From assembly GCA_964511945.1 (NCBI GenBank), contig CAZEHO010000003.1, positions 62,431 through 126,430 of the forward strand: a stretch of 64,000 bases of DNA. The letters are read 5' to 3'. Within the stretch, counting starts at the first letter, position 1, and every line of letters begins with the position of its first letter. The position numbers were made by a program, and so were the translations under genes. The stretch is from an uncultured Acidimicrobiia bacterium (GTDB lineage Bacteria; Actinomycetota; Acidimicrobiia; Spongiisociales; UBA11373). This document shows positions 16,046-25,455 of this stretch, piece by piece. Below the pieces are notes generated by a model. The model ran no database searches and was not told where the DNA came from. It was given only the letters and a program-made list of their open reading frames with translations.

Positions 16046-17191
16046 CTACTCCTCGACGTCGGTGGAGCCGGTCGACAGAGCCCGGCCCTTCCACACCACG
16101 TCGCGCCCGGTCACGGTCAGCATCATCGACCAGAACAGCGTCGCTGCCCAAAACGCAATGGTGAGGGCATGCAGCGGAGCAGTCCAGACGGCGTCCCGCC
16201 CCAGGTTGGCGGTCAGCACCCGGTTCGCCGTCAGCAGCATCATCTGCCAGAGCACGAGCGACGCAACCTGTCCGTCGAGGAGACCGAGCACCAGCCGGAC
16301 CGCAGGGCTCAGCAGCAGCGGAGAAAGCACGAACACGACCGCCGATGCCACCAGCGGGTTGCGATCCAGTGCTGTGTAAGCGTTCTTGGCGAACCCGTTC
16401 CAGATTTCGCTGACTCCCCGGTACCACCGGGTTTCCACAAGATCAGTTCCGTTGAGGAGAACGATCGACCGGCCGGCCAGCTTCACACTGCGCGCCAGCC
16501 GCATGTCGTCCACAAGGTGATCCGGGTAGGCGGCGTGGCCTCCGGCTGCCTCGTACGCCGTTCGGGTCACCAGGATGAACGGCCCGAAAGCGGCTGCGAT
16601 CTCTCGGGCACGATCCGAATTGATCGCCGCCGCCGGGAACAGCGCAAACGCCGCGTGTGTGACCATCGGCAGCATCACCTTCCCGGCGAACGAACCCGGG
16701 GCCGTCCGCGGGAGTAACGAGATCAGTCCCGCACCGGCCGTCTCCATCTCACCCAGAGCTGCCGAGATGGTCTCGGGGGCAAGCACCGTGTCGGCATCGA
16801 CGAAACAAAGCACGTCGCCTTGGGCCACCTCCGCCAGCTGAGCGCATGCCCAGTTCTTGCCGGTCCAATCGGCCGGCAGCGGGGATCCGCTCATCACCCG
16901 GAGACGGGGATCATCAAAGCCCCCGATCACGTCCCGGGTGCCGTCGGTCGACCCGTCGTCGAGGACGACGATCTCGAGATTCGGGTAGTCCTGGCTCAGC
17001 AGACTGGCGATGCAGGTCCCGATCGTGTCCTGTTCGTCGCGGGCCGGAACCAGCACGCTGATCAGGGGGGCATCGCCGTTCCAGGTGTGGCGACGGGGCC
17101 GCCGGAGCACCCGGCGGTTCCAGAGAATCAGCGCTAGTTGGGCAACGAGGAGCCAGGGAACGACCCGATCGAAGAGGAACTCCCAGCTCAT
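16046..17191 (-). CDS. Family 2 glycosyltransferase (membrane-associated, C-terminal TM region)
   Basis: GT-A motifs ISVLVPARDE and VLDDGSTDGT plus a DxD motif (FVDADTV). ATG 17191 overlaps the plsY stop as ATGA. Confidence 0.8.
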   Translation of the reverse strand: MSWEFLFDRVVPWLLVAQLALILWNRRVLRRPRRHTWNGDAPLISVLVPARDEQDTIGTCIASLLSQDYPNLEIVVLDDGSTDGTRDVIGGFDDPRLRVMSGSPLPADWTGKNWACAQLAEVAQGDVLCFVDADTVLAPETISAALGEMETAGAGLISLLPRTAPGSFAGKVMLPMVTHAAFALFPAAAINSDRAREIAAAFGPFILVTRTAYEAAGGHAAYPDHLVDDMRLARSVKLAGRSIVLLNGTDLVETRWYRGVSEIWNGFAKNAYTALDRNPLVASAVVFVLSPLLLSPAVRLVLGLLDGQVASLVLWQMMLLTANRVLTANLGRDAVWTAPLHALTIAFWAATLFWSMMLTVTGRDVVWKGRALSTGSTDVEE

Positions 17192-17802
17192 GTGCTGCTC
17201 CCACCGCGCATCCGGTCCCAACCGGTGCGGGCTTCGATCTCCCGCATCCGCGGCTCGTCGACGACCCGCTTGGCGGCTACCAGAAGGAATGCACCGAGTG
17301 CGACGCCCGTCATCTTCCACTCATAGCCGACGAGTGGAGCGAGCACAAACATGAGAACGACCACCGTGATGACCGTGGGCAGGAACCGATGGGTCGCCAG
17401 CCAGACGAGGCCACACACCGCAATGCCGATCAGTGCGGCCCACGGGAGCAGGGCGGCCGCCAGACCACCGGCGGCGGCGAGACCCTTCCCGCCGGCGAAG
17501 CGGAGCCACACCGGATAGGCGTGGCCGATGATCAGGAAGGCGGTAGCGACGCACAACTGCCAGAAGGGGCGATCCCGAAAGATCAGTGCGGCGGCAACGC
17601 CCTTGCCGAAGTCGATCGCAAAGGTGACGATCCCCCACCGTTGACCGACCTCGTGGAAGACATTGCGTGAACCGACGTTTCCCTCACCGGCGACGCGCAC
17701 GTCTACTCCCGCTGCAAAACGCCCCACGAGGTAAGCGGCAGGAATCGACCCGAAGAGGTACCCGATGAGCGCGGCAAGGATCGCTGCCGCGAAAGTGTCC
17801 AC
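17188..17802 (-). CDS. plsY: Glycerol-3-phosphate acyltransferase PlsY
   Basis: 204 aa; FGSIPAAYLVGR...GEGNVGSRNV...FGKGVAA matches the PlsY signature. Confidence 0.8.
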   Translation of the reverse strand: MDTFAAAILAALIGYLFGSIPAAYLVGRFAAGVDVRVAGEGNVGSRNVFHEVGQRWGIVTFAIDFGKGVAAALIFRDRPFWQLCVATAFLIIGHAYPVWLRFAGGKGLAAAGGLAAALLPWAALIGIAVCGLVWLATHRFLPTVITVVVLMFVLAPLVGYEWKMTGVALGAFLLVAAKRVVDEPRMREIEARTGWDRMRGGSST

Positions 17803-17955
17803 GACCAGTGTCTCCGATATCCGTCAGAAAGACTTTAGGAGATCCAAGCGGTGCTCCCCCCTGGAGATGGCGTCAATCCCCCAGCGCACCCGACTAGCGG
17901 CAATCTCCGCCGCGGGCCGCCCGGTTCAGCCATCGAATAATCGGGAGGGAGCGCG

Positions 17956-18192
17956 ATGGCGGTCGATTGGACGTTCGGCGGAACCTGGCCGTTCGAGCCG
18001 AACTGGTTCGATACCACCAACGGACGTGTCCAATACGTTGACCATGGTCTCCGGGACGGCAGGCCGGTGGTGCTGGCTCTCGGCAACCCGACGCGGGGCT
18101 ACCTCTGCCGCCACTTCATCGGACCGCTCGCCACGGTTCGGTCCGGGTCGACAATCCCGAGTGTGAACGGTGCCTGGCCTCCCGGCCTGTGA
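17956..18192 (+). pseudogene. N-terminal fragment of an alpha/beta-hydrolase (haloalkane-dehalogenase-like), truncated
   Basis: Strong RBS GGGAGGGAG. WPFEPNWFDTTNGRVQYVDHG..GRPVVLALGNPT matches dehalogenase N-termini, but the ORF ends after 78 aa and diverges after RHFIGP. Confidence 0.4.
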
Positions 18193-18311
18193 TCTGGGAA
18201 GGGCGTCCGGTCGGAACATAGGGAACGGTCGCCCGCACGGTCGGTCAGGGTTCTCGTTAACACAGCCCCCGAAGCTGTCGAAGAAACCGGGAGACCCAAC
18301 AGAGAGCATCC

Positions 18312-20222
18312 GTGCGTTCGACAGTCATCGACGAACCCGGATCCGGCGCGGCCCGGCCGGTACCGCCGGCGCCCCCGGAGGCCGTCGTCGACGCGTTCGG
18401 CGTGGCGTGGAGCACCTTTACGCTCTACGAGCACCCCCAGCGTGTCGAGGCCTTTGCGCGCGCGGTCTCAATCATGGGTCGATGTCCCCGCTACCCATGG
18501 CGGGTCGAGGTCGGTCCAGAGGGTTTCATCCTGGATGAGCAGTCCGTGGGGCACCGCCGTGAGGCGACGCTCCGACTGGCACAGCGAATCTTCGCCCTGG
18601 GAACGGCCGCCCTCGAACTGGCCACTCCGCCATCGGCCGAGGATGTGCTGACGCTGTTTGGATTGCTGGCAGCTCCGGAACCGCCCACCGAACCCGGTGC
18701 CGCCCTGCAACGGCTTGGAGTGCACTCCATCGCCCTGCTCCACCGGGAGCTCTTCGGGTCAGGATCGAGCGGCGACGGTGGCAAGCCGTGGTACCTGTCG
18801 TACGACGGCAATCCCGAGCCCTTCGTCCACAAGCTGCTGGAGGGCCGGGAGAGCGATGCCAGCGGGGTCGCAGTCGACTTCGTCGCCGAGTATCAGCGGG
18901 TCCATGAACTGATCGACTCGGCCGACCCGTGGGGTCGCGAGGAGATGGTCCATGCCTTCATGGACGCCTTCTGGTATCTCCCCCAGCGCCACCAGGCGGA
19001 GGTATTCGAGCAACTCCTCCAGGGCCAGGAATCGGCGCAGAACCTCGAGCTTCTCGACCAGTTCGGCAGCCAGGAACTGGCCGAACTGAACCGGCTGTTC
19101 GGAGCCGCCGGCCATCCCCTGCTGGCGGAGTATGCCCGGGTGGCCTCCGATCAGGGAGGCCGTGAGCTGTCCGATATCGCCCCGCTGGTCGAGGAGAGCA
19201 GCGAAGCCGATTCGATCAGCAAGGCCGTCATGGACCACATCTCCCAGGTTCTCAGCGCCATCGATCCCGGCGGGACGCCGGCGGTGGCTGCCGCACTGGA
19301 CCGCCTCCGCTCGATCCGCCCTCGGCCGGCAGATGCTTGGAGGTCGGCGGTCAACGTGATCGGCGGCCTCATCGACCTCGAGATTCGGGGTGAGGAGGTC
19401 GAGCGCCCCGTCGAGTTGTGGGCCGACAAGATCGTTGCCGCGCTCGGGTCCGGAGATCTCATTGATGCTGACCGGTGGCTTACCGCACCCGGGAGACTCC
19501 GGCTCGATCCGGAGACCCGCACCAGGCTGCTGCGCACCCTGTCGGGCCGGATGGATCAGGCCTCGACCAATCGGATCGTCGCCGTGCTCATGGATGAGCG
19601 GCCCGACGGCTCGGGATCGAACGTCCGCAAGGTGGCTCCTCTCTTCGCAGCCGACGCGCTGGTGACACTCCTCGGAGCAGAGGAACGGCAGGCAAAGCGG
19701 CGCTTGCTGATCCGCGCCCTGATCCAGATCGCCGCAGTCAATCCCGGAGCGCTACTCCCCCATCTGCGCGATCCCCGCTGGTACCTGGTCCGCAACATCG
19801 CACTGATTCTCGGAGCCTGCGGCCATGCTGAGATCGCCCCGAGGCTCTCCGCCGTGCTGCACCATGACGACCACCGGGTCCGTGTCGAGGCCCTGAGCTC
19901 GTGGAGCCGCCTCGACCCCGCCGGCTCGGTACTGGTCGTCGTCGCCGGCCTCGACGACCCCAACGAGGCGGTCCGCAAGCGCGCCGACGAGTTGCTGGGC
20001 CGAATCGACCATCCATCGGTCGATGCAGCGCTCATCGACCGACTCGAGCGAGCGACACACCGAGGGGGAATGATCGCCGCCATCCACGCCCTGGGCCGGC
20101 GCGGCACTCCGGCGGCACGGCAGGTCCTGCAGCAGAGGGCAGCACGCCGATTCCCGTTCTGGGGCACGACTCGAGCCGTCCGTCGCACCGCCCGGGCAGC
20201 CCTGGAGGGACGCCATGAGTGA
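18312..20222 (+). CDS. HEAT/PBS-lyase-type repeat protein (GTG start)
   Basis: 636 aa. C-terminal HEAT-like repeats (WYLVRNIALILGACG..., HDDHRVRVEALSSW, GLDDPNEAVRKRADELLG). Its stop overlaps the next gene's ATG by 8 nt. Confidence 0.7.
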   Translation: MRSTVIDEPGSGAARPVPPAPPEAVVDAFGVAWSTFTLYEHPQRVEAFARAVSIMGRCPRYPWRVEVGPEGFILDEQSVGHRREATLRLAQRIFALGTAALELATPPSAEDVLTLFGLLAAPEPPTEPGAALQRLGVHSIALLHRELFGSGSSGDGGKPWYLSYDGNPEPFVHKLLEGRESDASGVAVDFVAEYQRVHELIDSADPWGREEMVHAFMDAFWYLPQRHQAEVFEQLLQGQESAQNLELLDQFGSQELAELNRLFGAAGHPLLAEYARVASDQGGRELSDIAPLVEESSEADSISKAVMDHISQVLSAIDPGGTPAVAAALDRLRSIRPRPADAWRSAVNVIGGLIDLEIRGEEVERPVELWADKIVAALGSGDLIDADRWLTAPGRLRLDPETRTRLLRTLSGRMDQASTNRIVAVLMDERPDGSGSNVRKVAPLFAADALVTLLGAEERQAKRRLLIRALIQIAAVNPGALLPHLRDPRWYLVRNIALILGACGHAEIAPRLSAVLHHDDHRVRVEALSSWSRLDPAGSVLVVVAGLDDPNEAVRKRADELLGRIDHPSVDAALIDRLERATHRGGMIAAIHALGRRGTPAARQVLQQRAARRFPFWGTTRAVRRTARAALEGRHE

Positions 20223-21576
20223 ACAGATCGCAGCCAGCTTGATCCGGGCGCTGCGCCGGGGCGTCAGCTACGCCAGGCTCTACGGAGCCGACCACACGCT
20301 CACCATGGAGGCGTGTGATGAGGCCGCCCGAGCCGCCAATGCATTCGGGCCGTCCTACCCGGGCACGCTCCTCGCGTTCGTCGACGAAACCCTGTTCGTG
20401 GACAGCTCGGCATGCGGGCACACGTCACTGCAGTTCAACGGCTTCTTGCGAGCGATCGAAGCGGCCGGCGTCGAGACTCTCCTGTTCACCGCCAACGTGG
20501 AGCCCGCAGAGATCAACCGGCTGGTTCAAGTGATCGCCGGCGAGATCGACGAGTTCGGGGCGGGACGGAACCTGCGGGTCAACGATGTCCATCTCGGAAC
20601 GGACGACCTCGACGAGAGCCCGACCTCCGAGTTCCGCAAGTCGTACGCCGCCTCGCTCGAGGCGCTGCGGCGCGTCGGCGCTGCCGTCACCGGCGGGGAG
20701 AAGCTGTCGATCGACGGAACCGCCGACGTGGTCCAGGACCTGCTGCGGCAGGTGGTGGAGAACCCCACCGCAGCCCTGCTGCTGGCGACGGTGAAGAGCC
20801 ATCACGAATACACCTTCTACCACTCGGTCAACACCTCGATTCTCTCGCTCGGGCTGGCGCACCTGGTGGGCCTGCCCGACGAGGACACACTGCTCCTCGG
20901 AACCGCCGCCATGCTCCATGACATCGGAAAGGTCGGCGTGTCGACGGCGGTCCTGCAGCACCCCGGTCGCCTCGACGCCGAGCAGTGGAAGGAGATCCGC
21001 AGGCACCCGCAGATCGGAGCCGAGAGCATCCTCGAAGCCGCCGGTCCCGGGCAGGAAGTGACTGCGGTGGTGGCCTTCGAACACCACGCCCGGTTCGACG
21101 GCAGTGGTTATCCCCGCCTCGTGTATCACGACGGGACGGACCACCACCATGCAACTAGCCATCCGCTGCACTTCTTCAGCCGTCTGGTCGCGGTCGCCGA
21201 CACCTACGATGCTCTCACCACCCGGCGCTCCTATCGCCGCGCCGAGCCGCCGAGCAGGGCACTCGAGATCCTGATCAGCGAAGCCGGCACCTCCTACGAC
21301 CCCGACTTCGTGCTCGCCTTCGCCCACCTCATGGGCCTGCATCCGCCGGGATCGTTCCTCCAGCTCCGATCGGGGGTCGTCGTGATGGTCACCGACGCTC
21401 CCACGATGACCGGGCAGCCTCCTCCGGTCGTGGCGATCCGCAGCGCCGCCGGTGCCCTGATCGCAGCCCCGGAGCCCATGGCATATCGGATGGAAGACGT
21501 CATCGGTCATGTCGCGCCGGCACTTATCGGCATCACACCGGCCGAGGTGCTCGAGAAGACCGGGATCGCTGCGTAG
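20215..21576 (+). CDS. HD-GYP domain phosphodiesterase with an N-terminal roughly 190-aa sensor region
   Basis: HD motif AAMLHDIGKV and GYP motif HHARFDGSGYPR. RBS GGAGGGA before ATG 20215. Confidence 0.8.
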   Translation: MSEQIAASLIRALRRGVSYARLYGADHTLTMEACDEAARAANAFGPSYPGTLLAFVDETLFVDSSACGHTSLQFNGFLRAIEAAGVETLLFTANVEPAEINRLVQVIAGEIDEFGAGRNLRVNDVHLGTDDLDESPTSEFRKSYAASLEALRRVGAAVTGGEKLSIDGTADVVQDLLRQVVENPTAALLLATVKSHHEYTFYHSVNTSILSLGLAHLVGLPDEDTLLLGTAAMLHDIGKVGVSTAVLQHPGRLDAEQWKEIRRHPQIGAESILEAAGPGQEVTAVVAFEHHARFDGSGYPRLVYHDGTDHHHATSHPLHFFSRLVAVADTYDALTTRRSYRRAEPPSRALEILISEAGTSYDPDFVLAFAHLMGLHPPGSFLQLRSGVVVMVTDAPTMTGQPPPVVAIRSAAGALIAAPEPMAYRMEDVIGHVAPALIGITPAEVLEKTGIAA

Positions 21577-21587
21577 CGATCGGGAGG

Positions 21588-22466
21588 TCAGGTCGAAGGA
21601 GTCGTCCGGCTGCGGAGCAGCCCAACCACCTTGTCGACATACCCGCTGTACGACTCGGACGGCAGCCGGTCCAGCGGTTGCCGCTCCCAATCGGTGTACC
21701 CGAATGCGGCCATCTCCTCGGCCAGCAGCGGACGCAGGAAGTCGAGGTCGCCGTCCGTCATGAAGCTCGCCCAGTTGCCGGCCGATTCACTGCGCCGTAC
21801 CCGATCGAGATTGCCCACATCCCGCTGCAGGATGATCGGGACGCCGAGCCCCTCCTCGAGAACCCGGTAGTACCCAGCGATGAAGTCCTCGTAGCGGATC
21901 GCCACGGATCGTGAGTCGCCCTCATGACGCCGAATGAGTTCCCAGTAGCGCGTGATGTTCTTGCACATCCTGCGGGTGACGGCGGGCCCGAGCTGGGCCG
22001 TCCCGAAGATGGTGTTGAACTCCTCGGCGAGGTCGAACAGCCCCTTCCCATCCGGGTGCTGTTCCTTGTCGACCAGCACCGCCCGCCACGCCGCCACCTT
22101 CTCCTCGGCGATCCCGTTGCGGGCAATGACGATGTGGAGCACGTACATCAGCCGGCTGATCAACTCGTCCCGGGGATCACGGGTGATGAAAACGAGACGG
22201 TCGAACTCAAGGTCCAGTTCCCCGGCGAGGATGGCATTGCGCAGGCGGGGCCGGGTCTCCCAGTGGTCGTTTATGAGCTTGGCCACCAGGGGTCCCTCAC
22301 GATCCGCATGTGCCGGATCGTCGAACAGCGAGATCTGCTTCGGTTCGAGGATGAATTCGCAGGGGCGACCCCACGCCTCACCCAGGCTGTGCTGGATCGA
22401 TTTCGCAATCACGGTGGTTCCGGTCTTGGCGCGACCAACGACCAGAACGTTCTTCGGTAGGGTCAT
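21588..22466 (-). CDS. PAPS-dependent sulfotransferase-family protein
   Basis: 5'-PSB-like P-loop VVGRAKTGTT and 3'-PB-like ITRDPRDELISR. ATG 22466 chosen (MTLPKNV...). Confidence 0.65.
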   Translation of the reverse strand: MTLPKNVLVVGRAKTGTTVIAKSIQHSLGEAWGRPCEFILEPKQISLFDDPAHADREGPLVAKLINDHWETRPRLRNAILAGELDLEFDRLVFITRDPRDELISRLMYVLHIVIARNGIAEEKVAAWRAVLVDKEQHPDGKGLFDLAEEFNTIFGTAQLGPAVTRRMCKNITRYWELIRRHEGDSRSVAIRYEDFIAGYYRVLEEGLGVPIILQRDVGNLDRVRRSESAGNWASFMTDGDLDFLRPLLAEEMAAFGYTDWERQPLDRLPSESYSGYVDKVVGLLRSRTTPST

Positions 22467-22592
22467 GGCTCCGGAGTCCCTGACTCCCCAATGGTCCACA
22501 ATTGATGGGGATCGCGATCCTGAGGGATCGTGGCGATTGTAGGCCGCAGGGGCCTCGGGCAGTCCCGGGGCACAGGCTGAACGGAGAAGAGC

Positions 22593-23699
22593 ATGGCTGG
22601 CAAACAGGCAAGCGTTCCCGAGTCCGGCATTCCGTTCCGACATGCTCCCGATGCCGCCCACCCACCCGCCGGCACGCTCGAAGGCGGCACGGTCGATGTC
22701 CTCGAGCACCTCGGTTCCTGGGCCCGGGTCCAAACCGGGGACGGCCGGGAGGTGTGGGTCGACGCCCGCCGCCTGACCACCATTGAGGCGGCCCCGGCGG
22801 CGGAGGCCGCCGCTGCAGAGGCCGCCACCCCGGAGGAACCGCTGCCGGTGCCTGCTCCGCCGCCACCGCCGCGCTCCCCTGGCGCTCGCCCACCCTGGCT
22901 CATCCCGGTTGCGGCGGTCGCGGGGATCGCACTGATCGTCGTGCTCATCGTCACCCTCACCGGTGGCGGCGATGACACCGCCCTCTCTACCACCAGCTCG
23001 ACGACGGCCGCCCCGACCACCACCGCGCCGACCACCACGGCGGCAACGATCGCGGCACCCACCACCACGACGACCACATCGACCACGACCACCACATCGA
23101 CGAGCACCACGACCTCCACGACGACGACCACGACGACCACCACGATCCCGCCGCTCCCCCGCGAGGAGTCATTCGACGACGGCACCACCCTGGGGACGGC
23201 ACTGTTCGACGGGATCATGAGCTGGGACATCGCCGAAGGGATCGGTGTCATCGAGGCCGGAGCGGGTGGCGTGCTCCCGGTCATGTACCCCTACGTCGTG
23301 ACCGACGGCTCGGTTGCCTTCGACTTCAGCGCAGCTCAGCTCGAGACCACCGGCGGCATCGGCGCGGTTCTTCGATCAGAAGATCCTTCCGACGGCGCGC
23401 TCGACTCCTACGTCCTTGGATACATCATCCCCGGGACCAGCCGTGCGGTGATGGCAACATTCGCCAACGGTCAATTCACCGACGTGCAGGAGTTCCCGTT
23501 CGCCCCCGGATTCCTCAACCCCACATGGAATCGGGTCGCGGTTGCGGTGCTGATCGACACCCTGGTGATCACGCTGAACGGAGAGCCGGTGGCCACCGTC
23601 GGCCTCGACAACGTGCTGCCCGAGGGATCGGTCGGCATCGTGCTGCTCACCGCGACGGCGGGTGATTGGGTCCTGATCGACAATGTGGAGATCAATTAG
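22593..23699 (+). CDS. Membrane-anchored secreted protein: SH3b-like N-domain, TM helix, poly-Thr/Ser linker, C-terminal beta-rich domain
   Basis: WARVQTGDGREVWVDARRL (SH3b-like), then TM WLIPVAAVAGIALIVVLIV, then roughly 70 aa of T/S/A/P low complexity. Confidence 0.6.
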   Translation: MAGKQASVPESGIPFRHAPDAAHPPAGTLEGGTVDVLEHLGSWARVQTGDGREVWVDARRLTTIEAAPAAEAAAAEAATPEEPLPVPAPPPPPRSPGARPPWLIPVAAVAGIALIVVLIVTLTGGGDDTALSTTSSTTAAPTTTAPTTTAATIAAPTTTTTTSTTTTTSTSTTTSTTTTTTTTTIPPLPREESFDDGTTLGTALFDGIMSWDIAEGIGVIEAGAGGVLPVMYPYVVTDGSVAFDFSAAQLETTGGIGAVLRSEDPSDGALDSYVLGYIIPGTSRAVMATFANGQFTDVQEFPFAPGFLNPTWNRVAVAVLIDTLVITLNGEPVATVGLDNVLPEGSVGIVLLTATAGDWVLIDNVEIN

Positions 23700-24318: not shown

Positions 24319-25455
24319 ATGCGACGTGTCTGGATTCTCCTCGCCGTCGGGGCGCTAGCCGCCACAGCGTGCAGCAATCCCGCCACCGATTCCACGGCCA
24401 CCTCAGGAGCCGCGCCAACCACAACTCCACCGTCATCGACGACCACCGCGGCCGACCTGCTCCCGCTCGTCTCGACGTCCAGCACCACCTCTGCGTCGAC
24501 GACGAGCACGACCACTTCCAGCACCACCACGAGCACGACGACCACGACAACCACAGTTCCGTACTCGCCGGTCAACGGTCTGATCGTCGACGACGCCGAA
24601 CTCCGGGATCGCCGGGTCATCGCAGTCAAGATCGACAACCACCCGAAGGCCCGCCGTCAAAGCGGGCTCCAGGAGGCCGATGCGGTCATCGAACTGCTGG
24701 TGGAAGGGGTCACGCGGTTCATCGCACTGTTCCACACGAGTGACAGCACCTACCTCGGGCCGGTCCGGTCGATCCGCCCGACCGACTCGACGCTGCTCCG
24801 CGCATTCGGGGCCGCGTTCGTCGTCTCCGGTGGCCAGGAGTGGGTCAAGGCAATCACCACCGAACGTGGGGTCGACTTCGTAACCGAGGGCGTTTCCGGG
24901 CTCTACCGGATCTCGACCCGGGTCGCACCCCAGAATCTCTACGCCGACACCACGGAGCTGCGGGCCACCGCAGACGACCTCGGCTTCTCCGACACCGTCC
25001 ACGGCCCACTCCTCGTCTTCGGAGAGTGGGAAACAGCGCCGGCGGCAACCGCTTCCCAGATCGATCTGTACTGGGCCGTTGGAGCTCAGGTGCGCTGGCT
25101 CTTCTCCGAGGGCCGCTACTACCGGCTTGCCCAAACCACGCCACACCGGTGGGTGGATCTCGACGGCAACACCGACCAGTTGGCGTTCGACGTCCTCGTT
25201 GTGCTGGAGGGCATCCAGTACACCGCTCGACCCGGATCCGGATACGGGGGATCCTCGGTGCCGGCCACCGAAACGCTGGGGGGCGGCAGGATGGCGGTGT
25301 TCAGCAACGGCTACGTCGTGGAGGGAACCTGGGAGCGGAGCGCCATCACAGAGCCGTTCCATCTCTTCGACGACTCCGGCAACCCCGTCACCATCCCACC
25401 CGGGATCCCGTGGATCTCGATCTATCCCGAGGGCGTGGATTGGAGATGGCGGTAG
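24319..25455 (+). CDS. DUF3048 (YerB-like) lipoprotein with a poly-Thr/Ser linker
   Basis: Signal peptide and lipobox (LAATACS). Roughly 60-aa T/S run. DUF3048 core VIAVKIDNHPKARRQSGL..ADAVIELLVEGVTRFIALFH. Confidence 0.75.
   Translation: MRRVWILLAVGALAATACSNPATDSTATSGAAPTTTPPSSTTTAADLLPLVSTSSTTSASTTSTTTSSTTTSTTTTTTTVPYSPVNGLIVDDAELRDRRVIAVKIDNHPKARRQSGLQEADAVIELLVEGVTRFIALFHTSDSTYLGPVRSIRPTDSTLLRAFGAAFVVSGGQEWVKAITTERGVDFVTEGVSGLYRISTRVAPQNLYADTTELRATADDLGFSDTVHGPLLVFGEWETAPAATASQIDLYWAVGAQVRWLFSEGRYYRLAQTTPHRWVDLDGNTDQLAFDVLVVLEGIQYTARPGSGYGGSSVPATETLGGGRMAVFSNGYVVEGTWERSAITEPFHLFDDSGNPVTIPPGIPWISIYPEGVDWRWR

What the first reader, a model, noticed from the sequence alone, without database searches (positions are those of the whole stretch)
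18312..21576. HEAT-repeat protein translationally coupled (8-nt overlap) to an HD-GYP phosphodiesterase that has an uncharacterised N-terminal sensor
HD-GYP c-di-GMP (or cGAMP) phosphodiesterases are usually fused to REC or GAF domains. Here the HD-GYP domain follows a roughly 190-aa region with no recognisable domain. It is co-transcribed with a 636-aa protein whose C-terminus is PBS-lyase/HEAT repeats. The pairing suggests a scaffold plus enzyme signalling module. A 500-bp upstream leader (17803-18311) carries only a dehalogenase-like gene fragment.
Basis: partly seen in the sequence, partly recalled or inferred. Interest (0 to 1): 0.5.

Follow-up and report, generated by a model that had tools for sequence, protein, structure and literature searches.

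The report
HEAT partner plus HD-GYP phosphodiesterase operon
Two overlapping genes encode a likely active c-di-GMP-degrading enzyme and a HEAT-repeat partner that begin with the same previously undescribed 110-residue domain, and the pair is kept together in every related genome that could be checked, so it is probably a two-subunit signalling enzyme that nobody has described.

Summary
ORF1 (18312-20222, 636 aa, C-terminal PBS-type HEAT repeats) overlaps ORF2 (20215-21576, 453 aa, HD-GYP) by 8 nt. A 509-bp upstream gap holds only a haloalkane-dehalogenase N-terminal fragment.

Neither refutation test is met. All HD-GYP metal and GYP residues are invariant in 32 homologues. An ORF1 homologue sits directly upstream of the HD-GYP gene in 78 of 78 testable Acidimicrobiia loci, overlapping it in 76 of 77 measurable junctions. 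The same holds in 4 of 4 more distant lineages.

In one major Acidimicrobiia clade the pair follows a NarL-type response regulator between hpf and secA. The window's clade lacks this.

Best reading (inferred): a two-subunit c-di-GMP phosphodiesterase in which the shared domains dock the HEAT regulatory or targeting subunit onto the enzyme. New variant of a known kind; moderate interest.

The parts
17956..18192 (+). Context only: truncated haloalkane-dehalogenase N-terminal fragment (78 aa) in the 509-bp gap upstream of ORF1.
   Evidence: NCBIfam PRK03204 E 1.1e-8, matching profile positions 11-57 of 286. No 3' remainder was found downstream of the pair. It is not conserved next to the pair in relatives.
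18312..20222 (+). ORF1, the 636-aa HEAT-repeat partner protein (GTG start).
   Evidence: Full-length homologues (residues ~20-634) lie directly upstream of the HD-GYP gene in 78 of 80 loci; the other two loci have too little upstream sequence to test.
18372..18698 (+). ORF1 N-dom (residues 21-129): the shared N-terminal domain, with family consensus motifs ALG.AW...LYPDP, VGP..F and REGA.RLA.
   Evidence: hhalign ORF1 family vs ORF2 family: ORF1 21-129 aligns with ORF2 5-117, P 90-95%, E 1.7e-6 to 4e-8. Thirty column-shuffled controls scored at most 21 against 61. The ORF1-family HMM hits the N-termini of HD-GYP proteins, e.g. P0247 at 1.3e-12.
18699..19427 (+). ORF1 middle region (residues 130-372): conserved but unannotated, with motifs GREEVV.AFVEAFFYLP, FLDQFAGHELA and LLLDYARVATD.
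   Evidence: Conservation profile. No Pfam hit at E<=10. No PDB sequence hit. No internal repeats.
19428..20219 (+). ORF1 HEAT-like solenoid (residues ~373-636). Clear PBS-lyase-type HEAT repeats run from ~461 to 636.
   Evidence: Pfam HEAT_2 543-612. The family profile matches alphaRep, CpcE and MTH187 HEAT repeats over profile positions 461-609, E down to 9e-61. Weak internal repeats from ~373 onward.
20203..20222 (+). Translational-coupling junction: Shine-Dalgarno-like GGAGGGA (20203-20209), ORF2 ATG (20215-20217), ORF1 TGA (20220-20222), giving an 8-nt overlap.
   Evidence: In relatives the overlap is 4 nt in 67 loci, 8 nt in 5 and 1 nt in 4; one locus has a 9-nt gap.
20215..21576 (+). 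ORF2, the 453-aa HD-GYP phosphodiesterase.
20215..20589 (+). ORF2 N-dom (residues 1-125): alpha/beta domain (H2-23, H28-42, E51-56, E59-62, H68-73, H75-83, E88-91, H97-107, E120-122). Y23, H27 and S71 are invariant (RLYG..HP motif).
20590..20784 (+). ORF2 helical linker (residues 126-190), S-helix-like, connecting the N-dom to the catalytic domain.
20785..21333 (+). HD-GYP catalytic domain (residues 191-373). It carries H203, H235-D236, K239, H264, H290-H291, D295-G296-x-G298-Y299-P300, D329 and R338-S-Y340-R341. Tyr199 sits at the PmGH E185 position. A His-rich variable loop spans 296-315.
21334..21573 (+). ORF2 C-terminal beta-rich domain (residues 374-453) with the conserved motif G.YPPGS.L.L..G.VV.V; unannotated.
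   Evidence: AF2 strands 381-384, 389-392, 405-409 and 429-433. G374, P377, G379, L382 and G387 are invariant. No Pfam hit at E<=10.

Best explanation
ORF1 and ORF2 form a self-contained, translationally coupled two-gene operon. It most likely encodes a two-subunit cyclic-di-GMP phosphodiesterase.

ORF2 is the catalytic subunit. It has an intact HD-GYP domain of the binuclear class, with Tyr at the position of the third-metal glutamate. It is therefore expected to open c-di-GMP mainly to pGpG. The domain is preceded by a novel roughly 125-aa alpha/beta domain (N-dom) and a helical linker, and followed by a small beta domain.

ORF1 is a non-catalytic partner. It starts with a diverged copy of the same N-dom, continues with a conserved unannotated region, and ends in a HEAT-repeat solenoid.

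Proposed mechanism (inferred, not shown): the two N-doms pair with each other, docking the HEAT subunit onto the enzyme in about 1:1 stoichiometry. The solenoid supplies the input, either a bound protein or ligand, or localisation. This input is passed through the linker helices to control the phosphodiesterase.

Shown here: the gene pair and its coupling are conserved, the catalytic residues are conserved, the N-dom is shared, and the N-dom has no known structural or family relative.

Inferred: physical association, the direction of regulation, and the substrate.
For: Pairing. An ORF1 homologue lies immediately upstream on the same strand in 78 of 78 testable Acidimicrobiia loci. Stop and start codons overlap in 76 of 77 measurable junctions. 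The arrangement recurs in 4 of 4 more distant lineages sampled, loci L084 and L087-L091. No other window gene is conserved next to the pair. Pairwise identities of the two families correlate at Pearson 0.96, so partners were not swapped.

Shared domain. hhalign P 90-95%, E 1.7e-6 to 4e-8, against shuffled controls of 21 bits or less. Reciprocal HMM hits.

N-doms come in twos. One sits in each coupled gene here. Two sit in tandem in GGDEF-AAA_16-HEAT proteins, in P0227 (N-dom...N-dom-HD), and in small 300-350-aa proteins.

Link to c-di-GMP turnover. 54 of 66 mid-length N-dom proteins carry HD_5. The whole ORF1-like module is fused to a GGDEF cyclase in 1400-aa proteins.

Different conserved residues. 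The two families conserve different residues in the N-dom: R14, H27, S71 and N123 in ORF2 against W33, F48, R50, F72 and R88 in ORF1. This fits complementary surfaces better than one common ligand site.
Against: No physical interaction was tested, and no complex model could be built with the tools available.

The conserved Glu of the canonical HHE motif is Ala in this family (HHARFDGSGYP), and the KPG motif is HPG. Activity and substrate are therefore predictions.

No GGDEF cyclase is present in the 64-kb window or within 5 kb of the pair in the 80 loci. Whether these genomes make c-di-GMP was not shown here.

The ORF1 N-dom is weakly similar at the sequence level. BLASTP finds nothing, and the ORF2 N-dom HMM hits individual ORF1 homologues only at E 1e-5 to 1.

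High co-variation of the two families is expected from shared ancestry alone.
Confidence: 0.55

Rival explanations
1. The N-dom is a small-molecule or redox sensor domain. Both proteins sense the same signal independently, and the HEAT protein is a separate effector rather than a bound subunit.
For: The N-dom sits where sensor domains (GAF, PAS, REC, DUF3391) sit in other HD-GYP proteins. It also precedes other outputs, namely REC-SpoIIE in P0329 and GGDEF proteins. The ORF2 family has invariant polar residues (Y23, H27, S71, N123) that could line a pocket.
Against: The residues invariant in the ORF2 N-dom are not conserved in the ORF1 N-dom, and the reverse also holds. The N-dom repeatedly occurs in pairs, either in tandem or across coupled genes. 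No fold similarity to any known ligand-binding domain was found.
Confidence: 0.2
2. ORF2 is not a c-di-GMP enzyme. It hydrolyses another nucleotide (3'3'-cGAMP, pGpG, c-di-AMP), or it is a trigger-type protein acting mainly through protein contacts.
For: HD-GYP relatives include the cGAMP-specific V-cGAP3 and the c-di-AMP enzyme PgpH, which is a structural neighbour. The HHE Glu is Ala and the KPG Lys is His in this family. No GGDEF gene lies nearby. Catalytically weak RpfG-type proteins act through protein interactions.
Against: The RxY[K/R] motif that specifies c-di-GMP is intact (RSYR), not the RxxQ or RxxN seen in cGAMP-shifted enzymes (rule). All metal ligands and the GYP motif are invariant. 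The ORF1-like module is fused to GGDEF cyclases elsewhere, which ties it to c-di-GMP.
Confidence: 0.15
3. The two genes are merely co-transcribed neighbours with no physical or regulatory link between their products.
For: No interaction data exist. Operon membership alone does not prove complex formation.
Against: The pair stays adjacent with overlapping codons in 78 of 78 and 76 of 77 loci while every flanking gene changes. It moves as a unit between genomic sites and when duplicated, as in MAGs JBFGCM01 and JBFJZV01. The two products share a domain.
Confidence: 0.07

Closest known systems
Bd1817 family (DUF3391-HD-GYP; Bd1817, PA4108, VC2497, Borrelia PdeB)
   Different: The N-terminal domain is not DUF3391. 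There is no PF11871 hit even at E<=10. The order of secondary structure is opposite: two long helices come first here, whereas Bd1817 has four beta strands followed by two helices. No dedicated HEAT partner gene is described for that family. Bd1817 lacks the GYP tyrosine; ORF2 has it.
Binuclear-class HD-GYP c-di-GMP phosphodiesterases (PA4781; PmGH as the trinuclear reference)
   Same: Same catalytic fold and the same metal, GYP and RxY[K/R] residues. Lacks the E185-type third-metal ligand, as PA4781 does.
   Different: PA4781 is REC-HD-GYP and PmGH is GAF-HD-GYP. ORF2 has the novel N-dom, a C-terminal beta domain, HHA instead of HHE, and a His-rich loop after the GYP motif.
PBS-lyase-type HEAT-repeat proteins (CpcE/NblB, MTH187, alphaRep scaffolds)
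   Same: ORF1 residues ~461-636 match this repeat type strongly.
   Different: The match to NblB is far below threshold (16 bits against a cutoff of 300). ORF1 residues 1-460 have no counterpart in those proteins. The context is nucleotide signalling, not phycobilisomes.
GGDEF-AAA_16-(N-dom x2)-HEAT proteins (uncharacterised, about 1400 aa; P0235, P0311; loci L085 and L086)
   Same: They carry the same N-dom and an ORF1-like C-terminal region collinear with ORF1 over about 590 residues. They also occur as overlapping gene pairs.
   Different: They are single polypeptides with a cyclase (GGDEF) and a STAND-type NTPase in place of a separate HD-GYP subunit. They are uncharacterised themselves.
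RpfG-type response regulators (REC-HD-GYP)
   Same: In the sister clade a REC-containing NarL-type regulator is encoded immediately upstream and is coupled to the pair. Phosphorelay input to an HD-GYP unit is therefore plausible there.
   Different: That REC domain is on a separate DNA-binding protein, not fused to the HD-GYP domain. The window's clade has no such gene nearby.

Membership tests
HD-GYP phosphodiesterase domain | HD-superfamily metal ligands H...HD...H...HH...D | tested here: met
   H203, H235-D236, H264, H290-H291 and D329 are invariant in 32 sequences. They align to the PmGH ligands.
HD-GYP phosphodiesterase domain | HHExh(D/N)GxGYP motif | tested here: inconclusive
   The sequence is HHARFDGSGYP. 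HH, D, G and GYP are invariant, but the Glu is replaced by a nearly invariant Ala292.
HD-GYP phosphodiesterase domain | Fold of solved HD-GYP domains | tested here: met
HD-GYP phosphodiesterase domain | c-di-GMP specificity motif RxY[K/R] and the KPG motif | tested here: inconclusive
   R338-S-Y340-R341 is present (R338 and Y340 invariant, R341 nearly invariant). KPG reads H249-P250-G251, with PG invariant.
HD-GYP phosphodiesterase domain | Hydrolysis of c-di-GMP | not testable with these tools
   Needs an enzyme assay.
Trinuclear HD-GYP subgroup (PmGH-like, full hydrolysis to GMP) | Acidic residue at the PmGH E185 position | tested here: not met
   E185 aligns with the invariant Tyr199 (alignment). 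A Tyr at this site marks the binuclear group.
Bd1817 family (DUF3391-HD-GYP) | N-terminal DUF3391 (PF11871): four beta strands followed by two long helices | tested here: not met
   No Pfam hit at E<=10. The N-dom starts with two long helices followed by a beta hairpin.
RpfG family (REC-HD-GYP) | REC domain fused N-terminally to the HD-GYP domain | tested here: not met
   No Response_reg hit in ORF2.
PBS-lyase / HEAT_2 repeat proteins (ORF1 C-terminus) | Tandem ~31-aa HEAT-like repeats | tested here: met
   Pfam HEAT_2 at 49.7 bits against a cutoff of 27.7. Profile hits to alphaRep, CpcE and MTH187.
NblB / CpcE-type bilin lyases | Full-length match to the equivalog model | tested here: not met
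   NblB model scores 16.2 bits against a cutoff of 300.
Known anti-phage defence systems | Match to a PADLOC system protein | tested here: not met
   Only a weak generic HEAT-ARM hit for ORF1 (E 1e-4) and none for ORF2.

The most novel reading that the evidence does not exclude
The N-dom is a new pairing domain. It defines a class of two-subunit c-di-GMP turnover enzymes in high-GC Gram-positive lineages. A HEAT-solenoid 'input' subunit, ORF1-like, plugs into an HD-GYP phosphodiesterase through an N-dom:N-dom heterodimer. In fused form, the same unit plugs into a STAND-GGDEF cyclase. The same sensory solenoid would then drive either synthesis or breakdown of the messenger. In most Acidimicrobiia the unit would work together with an orphan NarL-type regulator encoded between hpf and secA.
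Probability: 0.35. Interest if true: 0.65.

Novelty: new variant of a known kind. Interest (0 to 1): 0.5.

Why it matters
HD-GYP enzymes are the less understood of the two classes of c-di-GMP phosphodiesterase, and their inputs are mostly unknown. The census of HD-GYP architectures that I read does not mention this N-terminal domain or a HEAT partner.

This locus points to an obligate partner subunit and a shared domain family of about 1000 clusters. That family has no curated model and no solved structure. It also recurs in GGDEF cyclases and in a PP2C phosphatase.

If the docking model holds, it gives a concrete and testable regulatory principle for c-di-GMP turnover in Acidimicrobiia, a class known here only from metagenome-assembled genomes. 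It would also supply a new domain for the databases.

It does not overturn anything known and does not address a long-standing open question, so interest is moderate.

Tried and rejected
- BLASTP of ORF1 against ORF2 found nothing significant. The shared domain appears only with profiles.
- The word-indexed search with the ORF1-family alignment was swamped by generic HEAT proteins and added few true members. This is why the ORF1 structure was not predicted; the second structure job went to the N-dom alone.
- The idea that the N-dom is DUF3391, as in Bd1817, was rejected: no Pfam hit and a different secondary-structure order.
- The N-dom profile against PDB sequences gave only chance-level short-chain dehydrogenase hits.
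- P0218, a 2016-aa protein with 12 'stretches' in the N-dom search, is a spurious low-complexity repeat hit.
- Streptomyces HdgA and HdgB are 6TM-HD-GYP proteins, not this family.
- Defence-system reading: no PADLOC support.
- Leader RNA: no Rfam family, including c-di-GMP riboswitches, at E<=1 in 17000-22500.
- No sigma-70-like promoter or intrinsic terminator was found. This is uninformative in a 67% GC actinobacterial sequence.
- No GGDEF gene in the window or in the 80 loci.
- No response regulator, hpf, secA or prfB homologue in the window.
- No 3' remainder of the dehalogenase downstream of the pair.
- The afdb50 fold library was unavailable.
- No literature was found for HD-GYP with HEAT repeat, PBS lyase or Acidimicrobiia.
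Full report
**1. Observation**

The window is 65-68% GC throughout. ORF1 runs 18312..20222 on the + strand, starts with GTG and is 636 aa. ORF2 runs 20215..21576 on the + strand, starts with ATG and is 453 aa. An independent gene caller on a public contig that carries the identical proteins gives the same calls.

The junction reads GGAGGGAcgccATGAGTGA. The ORF2 ATG is at 20215 and the ORF1 TGA is at 20220-20222, so the overlap is 8 nt. A Shine-Dalgarno-like GGAGGGA lies 6 nt upstream of the ATG.

The GTG at 18312 is the only usable start for ORF1. The next in-frame start codon falls inside the conserved ALG.AW motif.

Pfam finds only HEAT_2 (residues 543-612) in ORF1, and only HD_5 (194-364) and HD in ORF2. 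Even at E<=10 nothing is found in ORF2 1-190, ORF1 1-500 or ORF2 371-453.

Upstream, plsY (17188..17802, - strand) is divergent. The 509-bp gap contains a 78-aa ORF (17956..18192) that matches only positions 11-57 of 286-aa haloalkane dehalogenase models.

**2.

(a) Catalytic residues. ORF2 has many full-length homologues at 44-85% identity, named where named at all as HD-GYP proteins of Acidimicrobiia MAGs. In a 32-sequence alignment the following are invariant: H203, H235, D236, K239, H264, H290, H291, D295, G296, G298, Y299, P300, D329, R338 and Y340.

Three departures from the textbook motif are fixed in the family:
- HHE is HHA (A292).
- KPG is HPG.
- The residue aligned with PmGH E185, the third-metal ligand, is the invariant Tyr199.

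According to Galperin and Chou (bioRxiv 10.1101/2021.11.05.467447), a Tyr at that site marks the binuclear subgroup, which usually stops at pGpG. The RxY[K/R] motif, here RSYR, is the main c-di-GMP specificity determinant, whereas cGAMP-shifted enzymes have RxxQ or RxxN.

(b) Conservation of the pair. A scan of one genome per GTDB species found 424 relatives of ORF2. The best 80 loci are all from metagenome-assembled genomes, mostly labelled Acidimicrobiia. A full-length ORF1 homologue, covering ORF1 residues ~20-634, lies immediately upstream on the same strand in 78 of them. The remaining two loci have only 50-125 nt of upstream sequence and cannot be tested.

The stop and start codons overlap by 4 nt in 67 loci, by 8 nt in 5 and by 1 nt in 4. 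One locus has a 9-nt gap.

None of the window's other genes is conserved beside the pair. Pairwise identities of the two families track each other (Pearson 0.96 over 2211 pairs). ORF1 evolves faster: median identity to the window is 29%, against 44% for ORF2.

**3.

By eye the two N-termini look alike (LY..HP, then G[VI]..L). BLASTP does not see this. Profile-profile comparison of the two families built from the loci aligns ORF1 21-129 with ORF2 5-117 at P 90%, E 1.7e-6. Against the ORF2 N-terminal 135 columns alone the figures are P 94.9%, E 4.3e-8 and score 61.4. Thirty column-shuffled controls reached at most 21.1, and the reversed alignment reached 16.3.

Independent support comes from three directions:
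- The ORF1-family HMM hits the N-termini of HD-GYP proteins, e.g. P0247 at 1.3e-12.
- The ORF2 N-dom HMM hits the N-termini of HEAT proteins of other lineages at 2e-16 and 4e-15.
- It hits individual Acidimicrobiia ORF1 homologues weakly, but always in the same register.

**4. What the domain is**

It is not DUF3391, the N-terminal domain of Bd1817. That domain has four beta strands followed by two helices. The extra residues aligned with Bd1817 are most simply the long linker helices (inference).

A filter-free profile search of 1.84 billion cluster representatives finds 1027 proteins at E<=1e-3 and 72 at E<=1e-10. Of 66 hits of 330-1100 aa, 57 carry HD and 54 carry HD_5. Other architectures are:
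- N-dom...HEAT (P0276, P0318, P0297).
- N-dom-REC-SpoIIE (P0329).
- N-dom...N-dom-HD (P0227).
- GGDEF-AAA_16-[two N-doms]-HEAT proteins of about 1400 aa. Their C-terminal ~590 residues are collinear with ORF1.

The census of HD-GYP architectures that I read mentions neither this domain nor a HEAT partner. Full-text searches for HD-GYP with HEAT repeat, PBS lyase or Acidimicrobiia returned nothing relevant.

**5. The pairing extends beyond the close family**

Four more distant N-dom proteins were looked up. The loci have 64-74% GC and their taxonomy is unknown. In each case an ORF1-like gene directly precedes an N-dom-HD-GYP gene with a 1-4-nt overlap:
- P0318 with a 483-aa HD_5 protein (L084).
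- P0229 (L088 and L089).
- P0257 (L090 and L091).
- P0247 (L087, where the upstream gene is cut by the contig end but matches the ORF1 HEAT region). Searches cover these three.

In a Holophagaceae MAG, a 248-aa HD protein overlaps by 4 nt an N-dom-HEAT protein, which is followed by a second one (L082). The GGDEF-AAA_16-N-dom-HEAT genes themselves occur as overlapping tandem pairs.

**6. Genomic context**

In about 50 of the 80 loci the gene order is hpf (ribosome hibernation factor), NarL-type response regulator (REC plus LuxR-type HTH), ORF1 homologue, ORF2 homologue, secA, prfB, ABC ATPase, all on one strand. The regulator's stop codon overlaps the ORF1-homologue start or lies within 4 nt of it in 48 of 51 loci with an upstream regulator.

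A neighbour-joining tree of the ORF2 family splits it into two clades. Clade II has this context. Clade I contains the window and the loci closest to it (L001-L011, L013, L014 and others) and has variable flanks with no regulator.

Two MAGs carry two copies each, both in clade II. One copy sits in the hpf-secA site and one sits elsewhere. The pair therefore moves and duplicates as a unit.

The window has no homologue of the regulator, hpf, secA or prfB, and no second N-dom protein. The dehalogenase fragment beside ORF1 is consistent with a rearrangement at this site (inference). No 3' remainder of the dehalogenase was found.

**7. Anatomy of ORF1**

- N-dom: residues 21-129.
- Conserved, non-repetitive, unannotated region: residues 130-372, with motifs GREEVV.AFVEAFFYLP, FLDQFAGHELA and LLLDYARVATD.
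- Solenoid: weak internal repeats begin at ~373, and clear PBS-lyase-type HEAT repeats cover ~461-636.

ORF1 is not an NblB/CpcE-type lyase: the model scores 16 bits against a cutoff of 300.

**8. Mechanism**

Shown here: co-inheritance, translational coupling, an intact active site, and a shared novel domain.

Inferred: the two N-doms pair. Three observations point that way.
- N-doms appear in twos, either in tandem in one chain or one in each of two coupled chains.
- The two families conserve different residues within the domain. This fits complementary surfaces better than a common ligand pocket.
- Overlapping codons favour equimolar synthesis (established knowledge about translational coupling).

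The HEAT solenoid would then be the input or targeting arm. This role resembles that of the repeat arms of STAND proteins, and in the GGDEF-AAA_16 relatives the ORF1-like module occupies exactly that position. The direction of control (activation or inhibition) and the signal are unknown.

c-di-GMP as the substrate rests on the RSYR motif and on the GGDEF fusions. No cyclase gene lies in the window or near any of the 80 loci. The presence of c-di-GMP synthesis in these genomes is therefore assumed, not shown.

**9. Other checks**

- No PADLOC defence match.
- No Rfam family in the leader or operon.
- No consensus promoter or terminator.
- Streptomyces HdgA and HdgB are membrane 6TM-HD-GYP proteins and are unrelated in architecture.

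**10. Verdict**

This is a real, strongly conserved and uncharacterised two-gene module. The enzyme belongs to a known kind, HD-GYP of the binuclear subgroup. The obligate HEAT partner and the shared N-terminal domain are new. I rate it a new variant of a known kind, with interest 0.5.

Noticed in passing
L015-L074 (e.g. L046:1875-6317): In the sister clade the pair is the distal part of a tightly coupled three-gene unit: NarL-type response regulator, HEAT protein, HD-GYP. It is inserted between hpf and secA-prfB. No histidine kinase was seen within 5 kb.
   Followed up: partly
L085:686-9036; L086:763-9332: Tandem, 4-nt-overlapping genes encode ~1400-aa GGDEF-AAA_16-(two N-doms)-HEAT proteins. 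This is a STAND-like diguanylate cyclase family that reuses the ORF1-like module.
   Followed up: partly
L082:5258-10983: In a Holophagaceae MAG, a 248-aa plain HD protein overlaps by 4 nt an 875-aa N-dom-HEAT protein. A second N-dom-HEAT protein of 783 aa follows.
   Followed up: no
window 21100-21159 (ORF2 residues 296-315): A low-confidence His/Gly/Asp-rich loop follows directly after the GYP motif. Its length varies from 0 to about 40 aa among homologues and it is often His-rich (e.g. GGHHHGHGHG in P0029). It may be a metal-binding loop.
   Followed up: no
window 17956-18192: A 78-aa remnant of a haloalkane dehalogenase (profile positions 11-57 of 286) with no detectable remainder. It suggests a past rearrangement next to the operon.
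   Followed up: partly
window 21334-21573 (ORF2 residues 374-453): A conserved C-terminal beta-rich domain (G.YPPGS.L.L..G.VV.V) with no Pfam hit. The motif is also visible in the consensus of distant N-dom-HD-GYP proteins.
   Followed up: no
P0329 (777 aa): The N-dom also precedes a REC-SpoIIE (PP2C phosphatase) output, so the domain is not restricted to c-di-GMP enzymes.
   Followed up: no
window 22593-23699 and 24319-25455: Two + strand genes encode proteins with long Thr/Ser/Pro-rich linkers, likely secreted or wall-associated. One has an SH3_3 domain and the other DUF3048.
   Followed up: no
window 21588-22466 (- strand): A 292-aa convergent gene ends 11 nt after ORF2. It has no Pfam or NCBIfam match and is not conserved beside the pair in relatives.
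   Followed up: partly
L031/L076 and L017/L077: Two MAGs (JBFGCM01 and JBFJZV01) carry two copies of the HEAT/HD-GYP pair. One copy is at hpf-secA with the regulator and one is elsewhere without it.
   Followed up: partly
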